64,000 bases of DNA from positions 37,503 through 101,502 of IMG/VR virus record IMGVR_UViG_3300001487_000052. The stretch is one strand, 5' to 3'. The notes below the pieces were generated by a model that did not search any database, had not been told where the DNA came from, and saw nothing but the letters and a program-made list of their open reading frames with translations. The position numbers and the translations under genes were made by a program. This document shows, in pieces, positions 4,201-45,509 of this stretch (positions within the stretch are counted from its first letter, which is position 1; each line of letters opens with the position of its first letter). This stretch comes from a virus (Duplodnaviria > Heunggongvirae > Uroviricota > Caudoviricetes).

Positions 4201-5250
4201 ATGAGCAGAAAATTAGAATATAGTATCGCAGAAAAACTCATATTTGAAAAAATAGACTATATAAATAAAGAACATAACTTAGACTTAAATTTCGTAGGGG
4301 TTAAAGATAATTGGATTGGTAATGGAAGTAGAATTCTGTTATTTTGTAATATTCATAAAATAACTATAGATGTAAGCTATAGAAATTTTATTAGATTAGA
4401 AAAGTATGGTTGTCCTGAATGTGCAACTAAAAAACATCATGAATCACAAAGACGAACTACCGAAGAGTTCATTAAACTATCAAAAGAGAAATATGGTGAT
4501 AAATTTACATATGAGAAGACAAACTATGTTACTGCTAAGAAAAAAGTTATAATCACCTGTAAAGAACATGGAGATTTTCTTGTAAGTCCAGATTATCATT
4601 TAAGAGAATCCACTATAGCAGGTGGCTGTCCTGAATGTAAACGTACTGTGTACTATGAATCGAATAAAAGGCCAGTAGAAGAATTTATTGAAAAAGCAAG
4701 AGAAGTGCACGGGGATAAATATGACTACTCTAAGGTTAATTATGTTAATAACATTACACCTATAATAATTATATGTCCTATTCATGGAGAGTTTTCTCAA
4801 CTTCCAACAACACATTTACAAGGCTGTGGGTGTCATAGGTGTAGTTGCTCTATAGGAGAAACCATACTATTTGATTATTTCTCTGAGCATGAAATAACTC
4901 CACTTCATCATACGGTGATACATTATGATGATCATACACTTATACCTGATTTCTTGATAGAACTTAATGGTAAACAATATATGATAGAGTATAACGGGAT
5001 ACAACATTACAACCCAAACAATTATTTTAACTCGTTAAATAATAGAAATTCCAATTTGCAAGGATTCGAGTATCAAAAGAACAGAGACGAGTTAAAGATT
5101 AAATATTGTAACGAAAATAATTTAATTTTAATTATTGTCCCTTATATTCTTGATAAAAAAGAAAAAATTTATAATTATATGGACAAAGTATTATATGAGG
5201 GTATTCCACCGAACTCACTTATAGACTTTGATTCATTATACGTTACATAA
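4201..5250 (+). CDS. homing-endonuclease-like protein: two tandem Zn-knuckle repeats plus a C-terminal Vsr/DUF559-like PD-(D/E)xK nuclease motif
   Basis: Two roughly 70-aa tandem repeats, each CPEC-x-EEFI-x-(H/Y)GDK(F/Y)xY-K-NYV...I-C-x-HG(D/E)F...P-x-HL. C-terminal IPDFLIELNGKQYMIEYNGIQHY resembles the vDf...IE-DG..H endonuclease core. Free-standing between a terminator and the next structural gene. Confidence 0.45.
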   Translation: MSRKLEYSIAEKLIFEKIDYINKEHNLDLNFVGVKDNWIGNGSRILLFCNIHKITIDVSYRNFIRLEKYGCPECATKKHHESQRRTTEEFIKLSKEKYGDKFTYEKTNYVTAKKKVIITCKEHGDFLVSPDYHLRESTIAGGCPECKRTVYYESNKRPVEEFIEKAREVHGDKYDYSKVNYVNNITPIIIICPIHGEFSQLPTTHLQGCGCHRCSCSIGETILFDYFSEHEITPLHHTVIHYDDHTLIPDFLIELNGKQYMIEYNGIQHYNPNNYFNSLNNRNSNLQGFEYQKNRDELKIKYCNENNLILIIVPYILDKKEKIYNYMDKVLYEGIPPNSLIDFDSLYVT

Positions 5251-37129: not shown

Positions 37130-37668
37130 AAATATTTGTTCCATTATACTTAAGAGATATCCCAGTAATTTCTCAGTTTGTTCAGATTTATAGTAAGTAT
37201 GCAGAAGACTATAGAGAAGATCCGAGAGATAGCCTAGCCGATTATAGAGAGTCTCTGAAAAGAGATCCTGTAAAATATTTTGTAGGCATGTGTTTTGATG
37301 AAGAGGAGCTTGGGGATAAGTACGATGATATAGTAAATTATGTATCTCGTCTCTTTGAATCTGTAAAGGGAACTGAGAAGATATTTGACTACATGAAAAA
37401 GTACTTAAATGATTATCTCGACATACAGGGGGAGCCAACTTACACAGGACAATATATAGAGATTATGTTTGGTGCCTTAGTTCTCACGGATGAAGAACAT
37501 TTTTATACATCCTTATATAATTTCCTCAGTGCCCTCTTGGTATTTGAAGACCTTATCACAAATATAGGAGATTTAGGTCTGACAGTTAAAGATGAGATAA
37601 CTAATTATGTAGCAGCAGATGTTATATGCTACAAAAAATATAATATAAATTATGAAGCTAGTAATTAA
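37126..37668 (+). CDS. baseplate protein I-like (by synteny and size, 180 aa)
   Basis: Coupled ORF between the J-like gene and the first fiber gene. Confidence 0.3.
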   Translation: MKIFVPLYLRDIPVISQFVQIYSKYAEDYREDPRDSLADYRESLKRDPVKYFVGMCFDEEELGDKYDDIVNYVSRLFESVKGTEKIFDYMKKYLNDYLDIQGEPTYTGQYIEIMFGALVLTDEEHFYTSLYNFLSALLVFEDLITNIGDLGLTVKDEITNYVAADVICYKKYNINYEASN

Positions 37669-40210
37669 TAGTACAGATTTCTCAACTATTGGTACTGCTC
37701 TATATTTTTCTAATTCTAGCCATAATGCTAAATTTCTACCATCCTGGATAATAAGTGATGAGGAAATAGGAACTGGCTTTGAGTATCTTGGTGATCTTAA
37801 AATGATAAATGATCTAGAGAATCCCATCTTATTCCAAAATAAATATTTCAGTGTGGACAATCTTAGGTATTTTGCTTATCCAAGTCCTGAACTATTTGTT
37901 ACGAATGGGCAAAAAACAGTAGATACTCCCCTTAATAATCCCAGCGTTTATTATTGCGGTAATAAGGAGAGACTATTAGATGGAGATTTTGCTGAATATG
38001 ATTTTTCATTTTTAGTTGATAAATATAAATTCAATAATAATTTAAAAATACAATACCTAGATAAAGAGTCACAAGATATCTTAGGATATGATGTTTCTGA
38101 ATTAACTGAGATGGAAAAGATCTTATTTCCAACTGCTTATGAATCGTCTGATTCTAATTACCTTTTAACTGCAGGTGGAACTAGGATTAATACAGGTGGC
38201 GGTAATAGGTTGTTGTGGAGAGAGCCTGAAAGTGTAGCTCCTGAAGTAATCTACAGAAGAAATTATTTTGGTATGGTTACTATAGGAACTTATACTTTAT
38301 TTGTTTTTAAGGTACCTCCTTATGTAAGAAAAATAGAATTATATGAGGGTACTGTATTGGGTTCAAATTTATCACTAATAAACACCAATTATGACTATAG
38401 AATTAGAAATTATAGTAAGTATGACCCAGAAAAAACATATAGTAAAAATGATACAGTAGTATACTCTGGATCAACTTGGAAAGCACTCGTAGACGGAATA
38501 ACTGGAGATTGGGATGCTACTAAGTGGAAATTTGTTAGTAAGTTTATTCAACCCAGTTTATCTATCTATCTAGGACCAGATTATTTATGGAGTCTTTGTC
38601 CTAGTGATTGGTATCAAGCAGATCCTAATTCTTGGGGGAGTTCAATCAGATATCTTCCAACATCTAAGAAATACCTGAAAGGAATGGATGAGATAACCTC
38701 AGAAAAGATATTATGGATGGTTATTACAGATTCTGGTCAGATCTTGGATATTAATCTCTCTTATAATTCTTGGAGTACGGATAAAGTAAACCCTGAGAGA
38801 AATAAGTGGAAGTATAGTCTTAGAAACGATGAATTCTGGAGTACGAAAGATAATATGTCCTTGTTAAAAGATAAGTCAGGAATATTATTGGATGGCAGAT
38901 CAAATACTATCTTAAGTACGGAGAAGGTAGAAACTCATCCAATACTCTCTAGGAAAATGAGGAAGTTCGATCTTAATTACTATGATGAAGACCGATCATA
39001 TGTTACTGGAGAAAAGGTTAGATACTTAGGTAAACTCTGGAAGGCCCTACAAAACGTACCCACAGGAGAAGTACCAGAAGAGAAAAGTGAATATTGGACA
39101 ACTTTAGAACAAGTTTATTCTCCTTATTGTACTTATAGACTAGGAGAAAGGGTGCTATTTAATGGAGAAGTCTGGGAAAGCTTATGTGACTTAAACCTAG
39201 GAAATAGACCGGATTATTCTAGACAATGGATCCTAAGAGATAGCACAACTAATTTCTTTACTACCAGAGTTAATGTTATAGTTAATCCCTCTGGAGCGGG
39301 AAGAATAACTCCTGGCGGACAAATTAGAATAGATGGAGAAAAAGTATTCTCTGTATATGAGACCCTAGGATATGAATTAGAGAGTGTAGATAAGGCTTGT
39401 TCTAGTGAGACTGGGAGTTATCTTAGTGACGTAAGTATTGAGACTGATAGTGTTGCTGTTGAGGGTGGAATAATGGATAGGAAAAAAGTTAGAATAGGTA
39501 GTACTTCAGTTGAACCTATCCTAAATTCTGGAAAACTTATCTTTAATTTCAAAGCTACTCCTACTATTATAACAATTAATGGTATGTATGGTGATAACTT
39601 ATATCAATACTCGGCATGGAACTTTAACAATGAGAGAATTGAGTTGACTAGTACACCCTCGGTAACTGTCAGTAATACTCTCTCTATAAATCCTGGGACG
39701 ACTCTAATTTTATCTCCAAGCACAACTCTAGTAAATAATAAATTTACAAAGGTTATGTCAACTTATACAGATAGATATGGAGTAACTAGAGTAAAACAAT
39801 TACCATTATCCGGAAATACTATAGAAGACTTTATAGACTTTTCCTCAGCTACTTATACATTCTACATTGAAAAGAATGAAGTAGTAATTGATTGTACTAT
39901 AGGTCTTTCTGAGTTTGAAATGGAAGATAATAGAATAGAGGTCGATTATAATGAAAACGGATTTTTCAGATTCTATCCAAGAGCTAGTCAAGGAAGTCGT
40001 GATATTCTAGTAGCTATTAATGATACAGACACTATAAAGGTTAAACCAGGTCAAACTCCTGATGAATATGAATATAGTCGTACTGGAACACCTAGAACTA
40101 TCCCAGGAGTTTGCAGTAATTATGAGTTGACTCCAGTTTCGGGGTACTATGAGTTACGTTTTGATAATCTGATAAGTGACGTTAATATAGAATTGAGTTA
40201 TGATAATTAA
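37652..40210 (+). CDS. tail fiber / receptor-binding protein with CBM5/12-like modules (852 aa)
   Basis: Motifs Y-x-x-GD-x-V-x-Y-x-G-x-W-x-A...W (YSKNDTVVYSGSTWKAL; YVTGEKVRYLGKLWKAL; YRLGERVLFNGEVWESL). Confidence 0.6.
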   Translation: MKLVINSTDFSTIGTALYFSNSSHNAKFLPSWIISDEEIGTGFEYLGDLKMINDLENPILFQNKYFSVDNLRYFAYPSPELFVTNGQKTVDTPLNNPSVYYCGNKERLLDGDFAEYDFSFLVDKYKFNNNLKIQYLDKESQDILGYDVSELTEMEKILFPTAYESSDSNYLLTAGGTRINTGGGNRLLWREPESVAPEVIYRRNYFGMVTIGTYTLFVFKVPPYVRKIELYEGTVLGSNLSLINTNYDYRIRNYSKYDPEKTYSKNDTVVYSGSTWKALVDGITGDWDATKWKFVSKFIQPSLSIYLGPDYLWSLCPSDWYQADPNSWGSSIRYLPTSKKYLKGMDEITSEKILWMVITDSGQILDINLSYNSWSTDKVNPERNKWKYSLRNDEFWSTKDNMSLLKDKSGILLDGRSNTILSTEKVETHPILSRKMRKFDLNYYDEDRSYVTGEKVRYLGKLWKALQNVPTGEVPEEKSEYWTTLEQVYSPYCTYRLGERVLFNGEVWESLCDLNLGNRPDYSRQWILRDSTTNFFTTRVNVIVNPSGAGRITPGGQIRIDGEKVFSVYETLGYELESVDKACSSETGSYLSDVSIETDSVAVEGGIMDRKKVRIGSTSVEPILNSGKLIFNFKATPTIITINGMYGDNLYQYSAWNFNNERIELTSTPSVTVSNTLSINPGTTLILSPSTTLVNNKFTKVMSTYTDRYGVTRVKQLPLSGNTIEDFIDFSSATYTFYIEKNEVVIDCTIGLSEFEMEDNRIEVDYNENGFFRFYPRASQGSRDILVAINDTDTIKVKPGQTPDEYEYSRTGTPRTIPGVCSNYELTPVSGYYELRFDNLISDVNIELSYDN

Positions 40211-43200
40211 TAATACACACGTTCAAGGAATTTTTTTATATTCCTCAGACGTCGATTATGAAAGAGGTGATTTTGTAGTCTCAGGGGATAGTATATATAT
40301 CTGTACAGCTTCAAATCCAACAGATGCCTTAAGAAATACAGTCTCTGGTATAGATCCTGCTACGGATACTACTGGAAACTATAAGATGTATCCAGGAGAT
40401 AAGATAAGTACTGCACAGGAATACTATGACTATGTAAATAATCGTCTCTATTGGAATTATAAAAATACAAAAGAGGAAGTAGAATCCGCTCTTGATGTAG
40501 AAGCAGGAACTCTTATCATAAAGGGGACTGTAACTTCTCGAGATGCTCTTCCTACCCAATTTCTAGAGGAAGGAGATGTTTATAGAGTTGGTACGGATAG
40601 TACTGGTTATGAGTATGCTTATATACCTTATAAAATCGACAAATATATCTCTGGAAATGTTTTAAATCAGATTCTTCAGGATTCGTTTTTTGGTGTTAAC
40701 GAAGAGGGTGTTATCACTAATTACGTTTATACAAATACGGACGACGAAGGAAATGAAGTCTTAGAATATTCTATAGGTGGTTCACTTGCTAATATAGAAG
40801 ATAATAAGATCCTAAATGCCATTATGAAATCCCCTGACTTAAATAATGGTATGTTTAATGTTTCTCGTGCTCTTTCTGAAATAGCTGCTTACGTAAATAG
40901 AGGGGCTAATACAGAAAGTGTCTTAGTAAAGCAATATACCTATCTTGATACTAGTGGTGGTAATAAGAGAGTAAGAATACAAGAATTAGTAGACCCCAGC
41001 TTAGGAAGTATATATTATAGATGGTCTGAGGGAATTAGTTTATCTACTGACACATATAGTCCAGGTCAAGTATATAAATTAAATGATGTAGTTAGGTACT
41101 CAGGGAAATCTTGGTTATCTATGACTAATAATAATTCTGGACATCAACCTGGAAGTGACATAAACTACTGGACTGAATATAGCGGTGCATGGGCCTATAA
41201 TAACATAACCTCTTGGCAAAGTACTTTTTCTAGTAATGGAGCTGTCTTAGCACAACAAGTAAATGATATAAAAGCATATTATAATAAGAAGATTGCAGAA
41301 CTAGAGGCTACGAAAAAACAACTAGCTGGGACTTTCTGTAATAGGGAAGTCAGTAATATTTCTGGAACTTCAAATACAGCAACTCTAGTAGCAAGAGAGA
41401 ATGTTAGAATGCATAGTTCATGGGATTACGTGGATAGTGATGAAACAGATCTTTTAAATAAATTAGGAGTTAATTCGCTATCTGATGTTTTTACACTAGT
41501 TTCTTCAGTGGGGAAAGTAAATACCTATATGAATCCAGGGCCTCTCGGAATTAATGTTATTGTTAAGGTAGGTACAAGAACTAATTATACCTTTTCTTAC
41601 AGTAATGGCGGTGGTGCTTGGGTACATGGAAAAACATTGGCACAGATATTAACGGAATTTAATGTAACTAAACTATCTGATGTATTTCTAGTTCCACAAG
41701 AGACATATAACTTATTCTTATCTCTTCCTATGGATTGTCCTTTTACTGTTATAATAAAGGATGACTCTTCAAGAGATCTGAGTATTTCTTTATATAAACA
41801 AGTAAAGCAGAGTTGGACATATGGAAGAACCTTATTTGAAGAGTCAGATATAGCAAATCAAGTTACGAGAATTTTCCTTGAAGACTTGATTTATAATGAA
41901 GCTCACCTAGGAACTACATATAATGGAACTGTAGGAAATACTCTAGTCGTAGAAACTTATGGAGAAGCAGATAACCAGGATGATTTTCCGGATGCAAAAA
42001 GTGTAGTATCTTGCCCCGGACTTTATGGAGTTTATGAATATAAGATGCCAACTCTATATAAGTCCTATTTTGCAGATCCCATTGGTCCAGAAGAGATAAG
42101 TGATTATAGCGACGAACGAGAATATAAACGCGGTGAGAAAGTTAGATTTAATAATATTACCTACATGTCTGTCGAAGAGGTAGTTCCAGGTCATAATCCC
42201 GAAAATAATCCTTCAAAGTGGATTCCTTGGTATGATTACTTAGGAGGATTTACTTGGAAATCTGCTTACCCAGGACCAGATGGAAAAGATAGGCCCATAA
42301 ATGATCTCATAACTGACCTATCAACTTCGTATCGTTCTGGTAGTGGTGGAAATCTTTGGCAGCAACTTGTCTTGGGTCCCTCTCCCTTTGATGGGGATCT
42401 AGCATATCCGAGGGGTAGTCTAGTCGTTTATGAGGATGTATACTATAAAAATAATCTTGAAGTAAGGCCTGGTGGATCATCCCCAGACAGTTCATCCGCA
42501 TGGTCAAGTATAGGGGATAAAATAGAGAGTCTAATTCCGGATTATAGTAGTATATTCAAGATGGATAGAACTACTTTCGAATCTGAATTTTCTAACAACG
42601 AAATTGTTGAATTACCAATTGACAAAACCAAGTTCAAGTGGTTAGACTCTACAGGACAAAAAACATATACTAAATTTTTCTGTATTATATATCCTCTTTT
42701 TAATGTTAATGTTAATATAGAGGAACTGGTTAATAAGGTTACCGAAGGGAATTCCTATTATGCTTTCTTTGATCTAGATAGACCTGTTTGTATTCTTAGA
42801 AAGGTTACAGAGAATGATGATGATGTTTCATCTTATTTGAAGTATATATTAAGGGTTTATGGCGATGATTTAAAAAGTGTTTTTAGAGACTGTTGGATAG
42901 AAGATAAATCAATTATTTCAGCACTATCCTCTGGAAATGTTTATTTAAATACGTTAGAACTCCCCAATTCTGGAAGTATTAATATGTTTGTAAATATAAC
43001 ATATAGAAATCAGGAAGCGGCAGACTATTTGAAGGATAATTTCTTTAAGTGTAGAATTTCAGGTTCAGATTCAAATCTATCTTATGATAGTTTTGTAAAG
43101 GAAAATATAAGCTATAACAATATAACCTTTTTTGATGAACCCCAATCTTTTGCTGACGAAATTAATCCCCTAGGACTCTGCTCTATAAGAGTTTCAGACA

Positions 43201-45509
43201 TGGCAGATTATACTATCACCCCTATTCTAAAAGCTAAAGCTGGTGGTAATCCTAAAACAGATTACCTTTATTATATTGGTCAAACCCCTGAATATTCTTG
43301 GAGATCAATATACACTACATTAAATGGAGCTGATTCTTGGAATTCATCTAGTACCTATGATTCTGGGGACATGGTTTTTTGGCATAGTAGACTGTGGGAG
43401 AGCAACACCAACAATAACACGGGAAACACCCCCTCTCTAGATTCAAATGTCTGGGATGTCTATAATGGTGAACTCCATCCCCACGACTTCTATCCTGAAC
43501 TTAGATACATTACTAGAATAACAGATTTTAGAGCTGATTCTTGGAATTCATCTAGTACCTATAATTCGGGGAGCATAGTTTTTTGGCATAATAGACTGTG
43601 GGTAAGTCAAGTTGATGATAACATTAGTGAAATTCCCTCACTAGGTTCAAATGCTTGGGATGTATATGAGGATGAGCCTATACAAAGAGATGGAGATGTT
43701 TATTATGATGATGTAAATCACTTGTGTTATATCTGGTCAAACGGTTTTAGGGGGTTAAAAAATAGTAATAAAGTCTATAAATTAAATGGCTCAGAATCAT
43801 TTGCAGTAGTTTTTGATCCCGATCCTAGTGCTAACGTTTATTCTAAATTTGATGGTAATACTTTTTCTTCTTACAAAGATCAAAAAAATGTATTTAATGA
43901 TGTCTTAGCTCCGGCATCGGCCAGTGAGATTCCTGACACTAGAAACACCTCTCTTTATATAGCCACCGGTTCAACATCTCTTTTATCTAAGATATTTGAT
44001 TCTTCTCTGGAGGACATAAGAACTCTATGCACACTATATCCCCAAGTTAGTTATATGGTTAGAAATGGATCAGATTATTATAAAATTAATAACGGTTCAA
44101 TAAATTCTATAGAGATTACTACAAATGAAGATTATCTCGAAAATATAGATAAAATAACGACGACTAATACTCTTTCTGGTTTTTCTATGTATTATACTCC
44201 CTTTATGGTGCTTCTCGATCTCTCCAGTGATTTACAATACACAGAAGAATATAGATATATTTTTAATAATATGTCAGATGATGATAGTCAGAGAAAAACC
44301 AGAAATGATTGGAAAACTAGTGTTGGACTTCTTACTAAGACTGTTTTCGAATTAGCAGGTAAACCTGAAGAGTGGTCAGATTCTTCTACTTATAATATAG
44401 GAGATTATGTTATTTATGATGATATAGTTTGGGAAAGTACTGGTGATAATAATATAGGCAACACTCCATGGTATTCTTCGAGTGAGTGGAACCGTAGTCC
44501 TATCTTAAACTTTATCACTACAGAAGAATTAGAAGTATTAGAAGGATATTTAATACCCATTAGAACTGTATGCACTAGAACTGTAGATGGAGTAAAATAT
44601 TATTACATAAATGGTAATTATTGGGCTCCTGGAGTACCACCACAAAACGACAATGAATATAGTCAAACTCCCAATTATGATAACTTAAATTATCCTTGGG
44701 AACTACCAGATGCTTTTAATCTCGGAAAAGTTTGGGCACATACTAGAGCTGGAGGTGATAAATATTGGCATGTAGTTCAAAATAGATCAGGGTGGTTAGA
44801 GGTAAGTGCAGGTAGTTATTATGATAGCAATAGACTTATGAACGCTACTCCCTGGTGGAATAATTCAGGAAGGTTTTTAAATGCAGAAGAAGCGTTATTC
44901 GATATTCTAAAGACTAACTGTGTTGTTCATCCCAGTGCTTCTAGTTCTGCTGATAGATGGTTGGGTATAATGTGGGAAGGCACAATATCTTACTTACCTG
45001 GAGATATAGTAGTAGATGAAAATCTACTTTGGAGATGTATTAGTTCAAATACTGGTAAACAACCAAAAGAAAATCCTAACGAGTGGGCTTTTTATGGCGA
45101 CCCTCTTTTTAATACCCTTACTTACATACCATCAGAGACTCTACTTCTAACTGGTGTAGATCCTTCTGTACCTTTCAGAGTTCTCACAAAGATAGGTTCA
45201 AAGTCTGATTATTATGTTACCTTAAATACGAACTCTGCAGACTTTAGTGATCCTTGTATTATTACAGTCCTAGTTCAGCAGATTATAGATAATATAATTA
45301 AGAGCTATGTGGTTACGGTTGATCTTTCTGAGAAACCGGATCCATTGTCTGGGCTTTCTTATGTTAGATATTATATAACCCCCGATCTTTGTTTAGATGT
45401 CACTGGAGATGATGATATAACGAAGGTTCTAACAGTTAGGGATCCAAATACAGGAACAATAGATCCTGATTCTAGAATAAAAAACATATACTATAGATAT
45501 AAAATATGA
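40200..45509 (+). CDS. giant tail fiber protein (1769 aa) with at least 7 CBM5/12-like carbohydrate-binding modules
   Basis: Repeated modules such as YKLNDVVRYSGKSWLSMTNNNSGHQPGSDINYWTEY and YNIGDYVIYDDIVWESTGDNNIGNTPWYSSSEWN. Contains a recent internal duplication. Confidence 0.65.
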   Translation: MIINNTHVQGIFLYSSDVDYERGDFVVSGDSIYICTASNPTDALRNTVSGIDPATDTTGNYKMYPGDKISTAQEYYDYVNNRLYWNYKNTKEEVESALDVEAGTLIIKGTVTSRDALPTQFLEEGDVYRVGTDSTGYEYAYIPYKIDKYISGNVLNQILQDSFFGVNEEGVITNYVYTNTDDEGNEVLEYSIGGSLANIEDNKILNAIMKSPDLNNGMFNVSRALSEIAAYVNRGANTESVLVKQYTYLDTSGGNKRVRIQELVDPSLGSIYYRWSEGISLSTDTYSPGQVYKLNDVVRYSGKSWLSMTNNNSGHQPGSDINYWTEYSGAWAYNNITSWQSTFSSNGAVLAQQVNDIKAYYNKKIAELEATKKQLAGTFCNREVSNISGTSNTATLVARENVRMHSSWDYVDSDETDLLNKLGVNSLSDVFTLVSSVGKVNTYMNPGPLGINVIVKVGTRTNYTFSYSNGGGAWVHGKTLAQILTEFNVTKLSDVFLVPQETYNLFLSLPMDCPFTVIIKDDSSRDLSISLYKQVKQSWTYGRTLFEESDIANQVTRIFLEDLIYNEAHLGTTYNGTVGNTLVVETYGEADNQDDFPDAKSVVSCPGLYGVYEYKMPTLYKSYFADPIGPEEISDYSDEREYKRGEKVRFNNITYMSVEEVVPGHNPENNPSKWIPWYDYLGGFTWKSAYPGPDGKDRPINDLITDLSTSYRSGSGGNLWQQLVLGPSPFDGDLAYPRGSLVVYEDVYYKNNLEVRPGGSSPDSSSAWSSIGDKIESLIPDYSSIFKMDRTTFESEFSNNEIVELPIDKTKFKWLDSTGQKTYTKFFCIIYPLFNVNVNIEELVNKVTEGNSYYAFFDLDRPVCILRKVTENDDDVSSYLKYILRVYGDDLKSVFRDCWIEDKSIISALSSGNVYLNTLELPNSGSINMFVNITYRNQEAADYLKDNFFKCRISGSDSNLSYDSFVKENISYNNITFFDEPQSFADEINPLGLCSIRVSDMADYTITPILKAKAGGNPKTDYLYYIGQTPEYSWRSIYTTLNGADSWNSSSTYDSGDMVFWHSRLWESNTNNNTGNTPSLDSNVWDVYNGELHPHDFYPELRYITRITDFRADSWNSSSTYNSGSIVFWHNRLWVSQVDDNISEIPSLGSNAWDVYEDEPIQRDGDVYYDDVNHLCYIWSNGFRGLKNSNKVYKLNGSESFAVVFDPDPSANVYSKFDGNTFSSYKDQKNVFNDVLAPASASEIPDTRNTSLYIATGSTSLLSKIFDSSLEDIRTLCTLYPQVSYMVRNGSDYYKINNGSINSIEITTNEDYLENIDKITTTNTLSGFSMYYTPFMVLLDLSSDLQYTEEYRYIFNNMSDDDSQRKTRNDWKTSVGLLTKTVFELAGKPEEWSDSSTYNIGDYVIYDDIVWESTGDNNIGNTPWYSSSEWNRSPILNFITTEELEVLEGYLIPIRTVCTRTVDGVKYYYINGNYWAPGVPPQNDNEYSQTPNYDNLNYPWELPDAFNLGKVWAHTRAGGDKYWHVVQNRSGWLEVSAGSYYDSNRLMNATPWWNNSGRFLNAEEALFDILKTNCVVHPSASSSADRWLGIMWEGTISYLPGDIVVDENLLWRCISSNTGKQPKENPNEWAFYGDPLFNTLTYIPSETLLLTGVDPSVPFRVLTKIGSKSDYYVTLNTNSADFSDPCIITVLVQQIIDNIIKSYVVTVDLSEKPDPLSGLSYVRYYITPDLCLDVTGDDDITKVLTVRDPNTGTIDPDSRIKNIYYRYKI
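43329..43736 (+). repeat. near-identical 204-bp tandem duplication inside the fiber gene
   Basis: GCTGATTCTTGGAATTCATCTAGTACCTAT... at 43329 and again at 43533, about 90% identical over the first roughly 75 nt. Encodes duplicated ADSWNSSSTY-SG-(V/I)VFWH-RLW modules. Confidence 0.7.

What the first reader, a model, noticed from the sequence alone, without database searches (positions are those of the whole stretch)
43329..43736. Recent 204-bp tandem duplication inside the 1769-aa fiber gene
Two adjacent copies encoding (G/R)ADSWNSSSTY(D/N)SG(D/S)(M/I)VFWH(S/N)RLW are about 90% identical over the first roughly 75 nt and then diverge. The 204-nt period preserves the reading frame. This indicates ongoing module duplication and divergence at the receptor-binding end. 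I checked the mismatches against a DGR TR/VR pattern, and they are not adenine-specific in either direction.
Basis: seen in the sequence. Interest (0 to 1): 0.55.

Follow-up and report, generated by a model that had tools for sequence, protein, structure and literature searches.

The report
Duplicated sugar-binding-type module in phage fiber
A giant tail-fiber-like protein of an uncultivated large phage carries two neighbouring copies of a small chitin-binding-type (CBM5/12) module; the copying is real, strain-specific and older than it looks, and one copy has rewritten a single surface loop, which is an ordinary way for phage adhesion proteins to evolve.

The parts
40200..45509 (+). 1769-aa multi-module gene (tail-fiber-like). 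It holds 7 full CBM5/12-like modules plus one partial N-terminal module.
   Evidence: ORF. Pfam CBM_5_12 scores 53.8 bits over 5 stretches. A module HMM finds aa 283-329, 633-680, 727-774, 1044-1091, 1112-1159, 1389-1435 and 1590-1634, plus a partial match at 14-39. The gene lies downstream of tail tube, M23 peptidase and baseplate genes.
43305..43328 (+). Left junction (SIYTTLNG). SIYTT is homologous to LINST of the single-copy relatives; the ancestral leader is missing here.
   Evidence: DNA alignment with single-copy relatives.
43329..43463 (+). Module 1 (ADSW...WDVY, aa 1044-1088). This is the inserted copy, and it keeps the ancestral loop.
   Evidence: Pfam CBM_5_12 scores 18.2 bits over profile positions 2-43 of 44. 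AF2 pLDDT is 89.5 with a CBM5/12 fold.
43398..43433 (+). Module 1 loop, ESNTNNNTGNTP. It is unchanged at the protein level relative to single-copy orthologs.
   Evidence: Loop pN is 0.00 with pS 0.57-0.86 against P0002 m1 and P0004. The loop peptide SNTNNNTGNT is identical in P0003, P0004 and P0008.
43464..43493 (+). Diverged tail of module 1 (NGELHPHDFY). It is homologous to the ancestral module tail NGDPVQRDGDVY.
   Evidence: GATGTCTATAATGGTGA is shared with the P0004 module tail.
43494..43532 (+). Ancestral leader PELRYITRITDFR. It is present once, between the two modules.
   Evidence: in single-copy relatives this leader directly precedes the only module.
43533..43667 (+). Module 2 (aa 1112-1156). 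This is the resident copy, sitting in the ancestral flanking context.
   Evidence: Pfam matches only profile positions 2-22 of 44, because the loop no longer fits the profile.
43602..43637 (+). Module 2 loop, VSQVDDNISEIP. It is derived, with 9 of 11 residues replaced.
   Evidence: 19/36 nt differ in the loop versus 11/99 in the flanks, Fisher p=1.3e-6. The relative-rate test gives 2 versus 15 unique changes, p=0.002. P0002 has an intermediate state, ESQVDNNTSKIP.
43668..43703 (+). Ancestral tail of module 2 (EDEPIQRDGDVY).
   Evidence: It is conserved as ..P[VI]QRDGD[VI]Y in all 9 close relatives.
44364..44504 (+). Paralogous module at aa 1389-1435. In P0004 and P0009 this module has its own tandem duplicate; in P0012 and P0013 it is deleted.
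37652..40210 (+). Upstream 852-aa gene with three CBM5/12-like modules (aa 255-285, 444-484, 489-523). The last two abut each other.
   Evidence: Pfam CBM_5_12 scores 40.6 bits. The module HMM also finds them.

Best explanation
The 1769-aa gene encodes a tail-fiber-like or baseplate-peripheral protein of a large, uncultivated contractile-tailed phage. The protein is built from unrelated segments interspersed with seven small modules (about 45 aa) of the CBM5/12 fold. In the common ancestor of the window phage, P0002 and P0009, one module (with its downstream tail but without its upstream leader) was copied and placed about 40 nt upstream of itself, giving two modules 204 nt apart. Both copies keep every fold-defining residue (W, Y, G, V, W, P, W). 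The inserted copy (module 1) kept the ancestral loop SNTNNNTGNTP after strand 3. That loop is under strict purifying selection in all close relatives. The resident copy (module 2) replaced 9 of 11 loop residues stepwise, and P0002 shows an intermediate state. P0009 later lost the core of module 1; its sequence is consistent with a 141-nt in-frame deletion between AATGGnG microhomologies, and its remaining module keeps the ancestral loop. Shown: the duplication, its phylogenetic distribution, the loop-restricted acceleration in module 2, the fold, and recurrent module gain and loss at a second site. Inferred: redundancy after duplication released one copy to change the loop. That loop corresponds to the ligand-contacting face (Trp-Trp) of classical CBM5. 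The likely effect is to alter or broaden binding of a host surface glycan, or alternatively a protein-protein contact within the fiber.
Against: There is no formal signal of positive selection: loop pN/pS is about 0.57, below 1, so relaxed constraint explains the data as well as adaptation does. The canonical exposed aromatic pair of CBM5 (Trp59/Trp60 of SgChiC; PMC5328894 citing Itoh 2006) is absent from every module here, so carbohydrate binding is unproven. In the solved 7-7-1 fiber the CBM5/12-like stretch (residues 29-58) lies in the N-terminal baseplate-anchoring region (PMC12796354), which points to a structural role. Synonymous divergence in the loop is high in all comparisons, not only for module 2. 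The 'fiber' identity rests on gene order and fold, not on homology to a characterised fiber: there is no hit in 50,697 phage records at either the DNA or the protein level. The mapping of the loop onto the Trp-Trp site rests on profile register and my memory of the ChiC sequence, not on a printed structural alignment.
Confidence: 0.8

Rival explanations
1. Concerted evolution: the two modules are old paralogs, and their 5' halves are kept about 92% identical by ongoing gene conversion between the copies. The loop and the tails escape conversion.
For: The first 32 nt of the two window modules are identical. One variant (TCA at module nt 18) occurs only in both window copies among the 11 modules. 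At nt 23 both copies of each genome share a state (G in the window, C in P0002).
Against: The 5' block is just as conserved between orthologs of different strains. For example, window module 2 differs from the single P0005 module at 3/69 nt, compared with 6/69 between the window paralogs. Copy-specific sites are shared across genomes. Paralog flank pS (0.24) is not lower than ortholog pS (0.19-0.24). Ten relatives have no second copy at all. At most, a short conversion tract is superimposed on a real lineage-specific duplication.
Confidence: 0.15
2. Patch replacement: the module 2 loop was overwritten by ectopic micro-conversion or template switching from another paralogous module (the aa-1392 type or its extra copy), rather than by point substitutions.
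For: The window module 2 loop matches the P0004 extra-module loop (ESIVNNNINNI) at 22/33 nt and the window's own aa-1392 module at 20/33. It matches its tandem partner at only 14/33. There are multi-nucleotide codon changes (ACC to GTT), and 8 of 11 third positions differ. P0005's aa-1336 module carries the clustered ATTGTT (IV) patch otherwise seen in the extra module.
Against: The loops are short, AT-rich and low in complexity, so 20-22/33 is weak evidence. P0002 shows an intermediate loop, which fits stepwise change. Loop third positions are near saturation in all comparisons, including those with no amino-acid change. No candidate donor is more than 67% identical.
Confidence: 0.12
3. Diversity-generating retroelement: one copy is the template repeat and the other the variable repeat.
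For: The ancestral loop is rich in AAC/ACC codons, which superficially resembles a template repeat.
Against: Only 9/30 (module 1 as template) or 10/30 (module 2 as template) mismatches fall on template adenines; most changes are C to T. Both copies are coding and in frame within the same gene. There is no further copy in the window. No reverse-transcriptase family was hit among the ORFs of 300 aa or more that were scanned. The same derived loop changes are inherited by two strains.
Confidence: 0.01
4. Assembly artefact (an expanded repeat).
For: None beyond the general risk in metagenome assemblies.
Against: The copies differ at 30/135 nt, and the perfectly repeated stretch is only 32 nt. The identical protein occurs on 3 contigs from at least 2 samples, and the main contig has 95.8x coverage. 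The same layout appears in an independent, 11%-diverged assembly. The frame and the fold residues are intact.
Confidence: 0.01

Closest known systems
CBM5/12 chitin-binding domains of bacterial chitinases and chitin deacetylases (S. marcescens ChiB, S. griseus ChiC 2D49, Vibrio COD 4NZ1, which carries two in tandem)
   Different: None of the modules here has the exposed Trp-Trp or Trp-Tyr pair used for chitin stacking; the equivalent loop is rich in N, T, S and D. The individual modules score below the Pfam gathering cut-off (18.2 and 15.8 versus 26.2 bits). They sit in a phage structural protein, not in a glycoside hydrolase.
CBM5/12-like small beta domains in solved phage tail fibers, spikes and phage-tail-like injection systems (Pseudomonas phage Pa193 gp47, Agrobacterium phages 7-7-1 gp015 and Milano gp124, Anabaena CIS All3316, F2 pyocin fiber)
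   Same: They share the fold and a weak sequence signal, and they occur in tail-peripheral proteins of contractile systems.
   Different: Those proteins carry one or a few such domains. In 7-7-1 the domain lies in the N-terminal baseplate-anchor region (PMC12796354). The protein here has seven modules spread along 1769 aa. Outside the modules there is no detectable homology.
CBM-decorated adhesion proteins of siphophages (long Tal extensions and 'evolved' Dit proteins, e.g. Oenococcus phage Vinitor162 Tal with five CBMs; PMC8540738)
   Same: The architecture follows the same principle: a very long tail protein carries several carbohydrate-binding-type modules along its length, their number varies between phages, and they are thought to add avidity or specificity for host cell-wall glycans.
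   Different: The CBM families differ (CBM4, CBM15 and CBM22 beta-sandwiches of 120-150 aa, against 45-aa CBM5/12 modules here). The phage type differs, and binding has not been shown experimentally here.
Domain duplication followed by divergence of one copy (the classical neofunctionalisation / relaxed-constraint model)
   Same: One copy keeps the ancestral, selectively constrained loop. The other changes fast and only in that loop. A lineage that lost one copy keeps the ancestral loop.
   Different: A new function has not been demonstrated, and pN/pS in the loop is below 1.

Membership tests
CBM5/12 (Pfam PF02839) | Sequence match to the family profile above the curated cut-off | tested here: met
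   The whole protein scores 53.8 bits against a cut-off of 26.2, over 5 stretches. The two duplicated modules on their own are below the cut-off (18.2 and 15.8 bits).
CBM5/12 (Pfam PF02839) | Compact three-stranded antiparallel beta fold of about 45 residues | tested here: met
CBM5/12 (Pfam PF02839) | Surface-exposed aromatic pair after strand 3 (Trp59/Trp60 in SgChiC) that stacks on chitin or cellulose | tested here: not met
   The loop after strand 3 is ESNTNNNTGNTP in module 1 and VSQVDDNISEIP in module 2, with no aromatic residue. The same is true of all 71 modules collected. The register to SgChiC is inferred from the profile alignment and from memory of the ChiC sequence.
CBM5/12 (Pfam PF02839) | Binds an insoluble or cell-surface carbohydrate | not testable with these tools
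   This needs pull-down, glycan-array or host-cell binding assays with purified modules.
Simple tandem (head-to-tail) duplication | Two adjacent direct copies that are absent from outgroups | tested here: met
Simple tandem (head-to-tail) duplication | Homology over the whole repeat period | tested here: not met
   Only nt 1-141 of the 204-nt period are homologous; the last 63 nt match at 20/63. The ancestral leader is present once only.
Diversity-generating retroelement target (VR/TR) | Mismatches confined to template adenines | tested here: not met
   9/30 or 10/30 mismatches fall on template A.
Diversity-generating retroelement target (VR/TR) | A nearby reverse transcriptase and a non-coding template repeat | tested here: not met
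   There is no third copy in the 64-kb window. No RT family was hit among the ORFs of 300 aa or more that were scanned with Pfam and/or PHROGs. The rest of the 243.8-kb contig was not examined.
Phage tail fiber / receptor-binding protein | Encoded in the tail/baseplate gene block of a tailed phage | tested here: met
   Upstream on the same strand are a tail-sheath-like gene (weak hit), a tail tube gene (E=7e-9), an M23 peptidase protein and a baseplate assembly protein (E=3e-8).
Phage tail fiber / receptor-binding protein | Homology to a characterised fiber outside generic modules | tested here: not met
   There is no blastn or tblastn hit in 50,697 phage records. The only PHROG 'tail fiber' hit (E=0.0016) covers a CBM module.
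Phage tail fiber / receptor-binding protein | Conserved N-terminal attachment part with variable distal parts | tested here: inconclusive
   The N-terminal 400 aa are 92-100% identical among close relatives and aa 600-900 only 46-78%. The C-terminal 300 aa are again fairly conserved.

The most novel reading that the evidence does not exclude
The seven or more paralogous CBM5/12-type modules of this fiber (plus three in the neighbouring gene) act as a pool of loop cassettes. Short ectopic conversions between modules, together with module duplication and microhomology-mediated deletion, would repeatedly re-tool the putative ligand loop. That would be a retroelement-independent diversification system for host recognition in a large rumen or gut phage. 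Three hints support it: the module 2 loop is closer to loops of non-allelic modules (20-22/33 nt) than to its tandem partner (14/33); a clustered 'IV' patch is shared between non-orthologous modules; and gain and loss recur at two sites.
Probability: 0.1. Interest if true: 0.55.

Novelty: new member of a known kind. Interest (0 to 1): 0.3.

Why it matters
This is a clean natural example of how phage adhesion proteins change. A 45-residue binding-type module is copied, one copy preserves a strictly conserved loop, the other rewrites only that loop, and a sister strain deletes the extra copy again. It marks residues 1067-1078 and 1135-1146 of this protein as candidate specificity determinants, and it defines module boundaries suitable for expression. 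It also shows that CBM5/12-fold modules lacking the aromatic pair are used in quantity by an uncharacterised lineage of large phages. It does not reveal a new mechanism.

Tried and rejected
- Tandem Repeats Finder did not detect the repeat; overall identity is too low.
- blastn and tblastn of the gene against 50,697 phage records found no match.
- The search for related loci in IMG/VR and in JGI metagenomes with the two-module segment confirmed no relatives.
- A second homologous-protein search with only the 167-aa two-module segment returned nothing, not even the window protein itself, so it was uninformative.
- AF2 of the 237-aa two-module region with 9 close homologs gave an unusable model (pLDDT 31.8).
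It was redone without them.
- The DGR reading was rejected on the mismatch spectrum.
- Concerted evolution as the main cause of the 92% block was rejected, because orthologs are equally or more similar there.
- Positive selection could not be shown: loop pN/pS is below 1 and there are few sites.
- A clean tandem-unit model was rejected because the leader is present only once.
- PHROG scans of the neighbouring large ORFs (852, 280, 525, 1571 and 1528 aa) gave nothing.
Full report
OBSERVATION. The window holds a 5310-nt ORF (40200-45509, + strand, 1769 aa). Inside it, the repeat finder reports one outstanding direct repeat, 43327-43398 and 43531-43602. It is 72 nt long, 92% identical and spaced 204 nt apart. 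blastn of either module against the whole 64-kb window finds only its partner (78% over 137 nt, E=7e-28). In register, the two '204-nt units' are identical at 66/72, then 14/33, then 29/36, then 20/63 positions, 129/204 overall. Tandem Repeats Finder does not call the array.

IS IT A FIBER? The gene has no DNA or protein match in 50,697 phage records. Its only PHROG 'tail fiber' hit covers a CBM module. The gene order on the same strand is a tail-sheath-like gene (weak hit), tail tube (E=7e-9), an M23-peptidase protein, a baseplate assembly protein (E=3e-8), and then a run of very large ORFs that includes this one. The source contig is 243,846 bp long. Among close relatives the N-terminal 400 aa are 92-100% identical, aa 600-900 are 46-78% identical, and the C-terminal 300 aa are again fairly conserved. 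'Tail-fiber-like or baseplate-peripheral protein of a large myovirus-type phage' is a reasonable inference. 'Receptor-binding end' is not established, because the pair lies at aa 1044-1156 of 1769.

PHYLOGENETIC DISTRIBUTION. A database search returned 24 homologs besides the window protein itself, and I aligned the 12 closest with it. Only the window protein and P0002 (83% aa identity, from an independent sample) have two modules at this site. P0003-P0008 and P0010-P0013 have one module and a 56-57-residue gap, and P0009 has a remnant. I fetched the DNA of eight relatives.

The single-copy layout is ...WRLINST(K/N) | PELEYITRITxFR | ADSW-module-WDVY | NxxPVQRDGDVY | YDD... The window layout is ...WRSIYTTLNG | ADSW-module1-WDVY | NGELHPHDFY | PELRYITRITDFR | ADSW-module2-WDVY | EDEPIQRDGDVY | YDD.... 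Module 2 therefore sits in the ancestral context. Module 1, together with a diverged copy of the module tail, is the insert. The 39-nt leader occurs only once. The event was either the insertion of a leaderless copy (57 aa net) or a tandem duplication of about 216 nt followed by loss of 33 nt of leader.

P0009 shares the clade-specific flanks (SIYT, PELRY, NHLCYIW). Between them it has only ...ACACTGACATTACAGGTGATCCTCCCCTTCCCCAAGACTCCTAT... Its GGTGATCCT...CCCCAAGACTCCTAT segment is the tail of module 1, and its left part matches the window's left junction. In the window, the module-1 core is bracketed by AATGGAG and AATGGTG. A deletion between these would remove exactly 47 codons. I read P0009 as a secondary loss.

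The exact window protein is recorded on three contigs from at least two samples. Together with P0002, this excludes an assembly artefact.

AGE. Module-1 orthologs share copy-specific sites (module nt 59G, 113A, 123C). Module-2 orthologs share others (108A, 122C, and five loop codons). The duplication therefore predates the window/P0002 split. Outside the loop the window paralogs differ at 11/99 nt (pS 0.24, pN 0.10). Whole genes of the window and of each relative are 87-89% identical, with pS 0.19-0.24. The duplication is thus about as old as the radiation of these strains, and it is not 'recent'. The 92% block is not exceptional either. The same 69 nt differ at only 3 positions between window module 2 and the single module of P0005, and at 5 positions between the module-1 orthologs. 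Two sites hint at a short conversion tract between the window copies: nt 18 is an A found only in both window copies, and at nt 23 both copies of each genome share a state. This is a minor overlay.

THE LOOP. The sharp drop in identity is a stretch of 11-12 codons immediately after strand 3. It reads ESNTNNNTGNTP in module 1 (43398-43433) and VSQVDDNISEIP in module 2 (43602-43637). Differences between the window paralogs are 19/36 nt in the loop against 11/99 in the flanks (Fisher p=1.3e-6).

The peptide SNTNNNTGNT is identical in module 1 of both two-copy genomes and in the single modules of P0003, P0004 and P0008. This holds despite near-saturated synonymous change (pN 0.00, pS 0.57-0.86). 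The loop is therefore functionally constrained and is not a spacer. In module 2, 9 of 11 residues are replaced. P0002 is intermediate (ESQVDNNTSKIP), which indicates stepwise change. Using single-copy modules as outgroups, loop changes unique to module 1 versus module 2 are 2 versus 15 (p=0.002), and the flanks are symmetric. P0009, which lost module 1, keeps the ancestral-type loop in its remaining module. All fold-defining residues are intact in module 2. Loop pN/pS between the paralogs is about 0.57, so adaptive change and relaxed constraint cannot be told apart.

By profile register, the loop corresponds to the 'AKWWTQ..P' segment of classical CBM5. The two tryptophans in that segment (Trp59 and Trp60 of S. 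griseus ChiC) mediate chitin binding (PMC5328894, citing Itoh et al. 2006; the register itself rests on my recollection of the ChiC sequence). None of the 71 modules collected has aromatics there. Chitin-type stacking is therefore unlikely. Binding of another glycan through polar contacts, or a protein-protein contact, remains possible. In the 7-7-1 fiber the matching stretch (residues 29-58) lies in the N-terminal baseplate-anchoring region (PMC12796354), which is a caution against assuming sugar binding.

ALTERNATIVES. DGR is rejected. Mismatches fall on template adenines in only 9/30 or 10/30 cases, and most are C to T. Both copies are coding, there is no other copy in the window, and no reverse-transcriptase family was hit among the large ORFs scanned. 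Patch replacement of the module-2 loop from another module is possible but weakly supported. The loop matches the extra module of P0004 at 22/33 nt and the window's own aa-1392 module at 20/33, against 14/33 to module 1. The sequences are short and of low complexity, and P0002 shows an intermediate state.

RECURRENCE. P0004 and P0009 carry an independent 56-aa insertion just upstream of the aa-1392 module. It is a true tandem copy of that module including its leader (WMTSTGGPIT... versus WKTSVGPLT...), and the two units are identical at 116/198 aligned nt. P0012 and P0013 lack that module altogether. P0009 shares this insertion with P0004 but shares the aa-1044 region with the window and P0002, so the genes are recombinant mosaics. 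Module gain, loss and exchange is thus a general property of this protein family.

COMPARISON AND VERDICT. The closest known analogues are CBM5/12 domains (fold and signature met; aromatic pair not met; binding untested), the CBM5/12-like domains seen in solved tail fibers and CIS baseplates, and the multi-CBM Tal and Dit adhesion proteins of siphophages (PMC8540738). In evolutionary terms it is classical duplication followed by divergence of one copy. The finding is genuine and neatly documented, but it is an ordinary mode of evolution for phage adhesion proteins: a new member of a known kind, with interest about 0.3.

Noticed in passing
L004:6976-7131 (P0004) and L002:5785-5940 (P0009); window equivalent is just upstream of 44364: There is an independent tandem duplication of the aa-1392 CBM5/12-like module, including its leader. 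It is a 56-aa insert, and the two units match at 116/198 aligned nt. Its loop is ESIVNNNINNIP. P0012 and P0013 lack the aa-1392 module entirely.
   Followed up: partly
window 37652-40210 (+): The upstream 852-aa gene also carries three CBM5/12-like modules (aa 255-285, 444-484, 489-523), the last two directly abutting. Its length varies among relatives (812-852 aa), so it may have its own module indels.
   Followed up: partly
window 4201-5250 (+): An HNH/homing-endonuclease gene (PHROG 559, E=2e-47) sits inside the tail structural block, next to the sheath-like gene. It is possibly a mobile insertion.
   Followed up: no
window 1-64000 / contig NODE_32_length_243846: The fiber-like gene has no DNA or protein match in 50,697 GenBank phage records, and most large neighbouring ORFs (1571, 1528, 1010, 778, 697 aa) have no PHROG or Pfam hit. 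The contig is of jumbo-phage size (243.8 kb, 35% GC). One relative comes from a contig named as a bovine metagenome; the sample sources of the other relatives were not looked up.
   Followed up: partly
L002:1791-7110 (P0009): In this relative the orthologous gene is called as two ORFs (319 aa + 1369 aa) with a 250-nt gap. It may be a frameshift, a pseudogene or an assembly error. The same gene also shows a compensated +1/-1 frame shift at the module-1 deletion scar.
   Followed up: no
window 45450-45506 (aa 1751-1769): The last ~19 residues fall into two types among close relatives: 89-95% identical to the window in P0003 and P0006, but 58-63% in the others. This suggests an exchanged C-terminal tip.
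   Followed up: no
window 43374-43397 and 43578-43601: The stretch GTTTTTTGGCATA(G/A)TAGACTGTGG is almost invariant at the nucleotide level, third positions included, in 9 of 11 modules from 9 genomes that otherwise differ by about 11%. Loop third positions, by contrast, are near saturation. This uneven synonymous rate within a 135-nt module is unexplained.
   Followed up: partly
L003:7000-7155 (P0005, module at aa 1336): The loop of this resident module carries the clustered change ACTAGT to ATTGTT (TS to IV). Otherwise this patch is seen only in the extra module of P0004 and P0009, which P0005 lacks. It could be a short ectopic conversion, or the ancestral state of the duplicated unit.
   Followed up: partly
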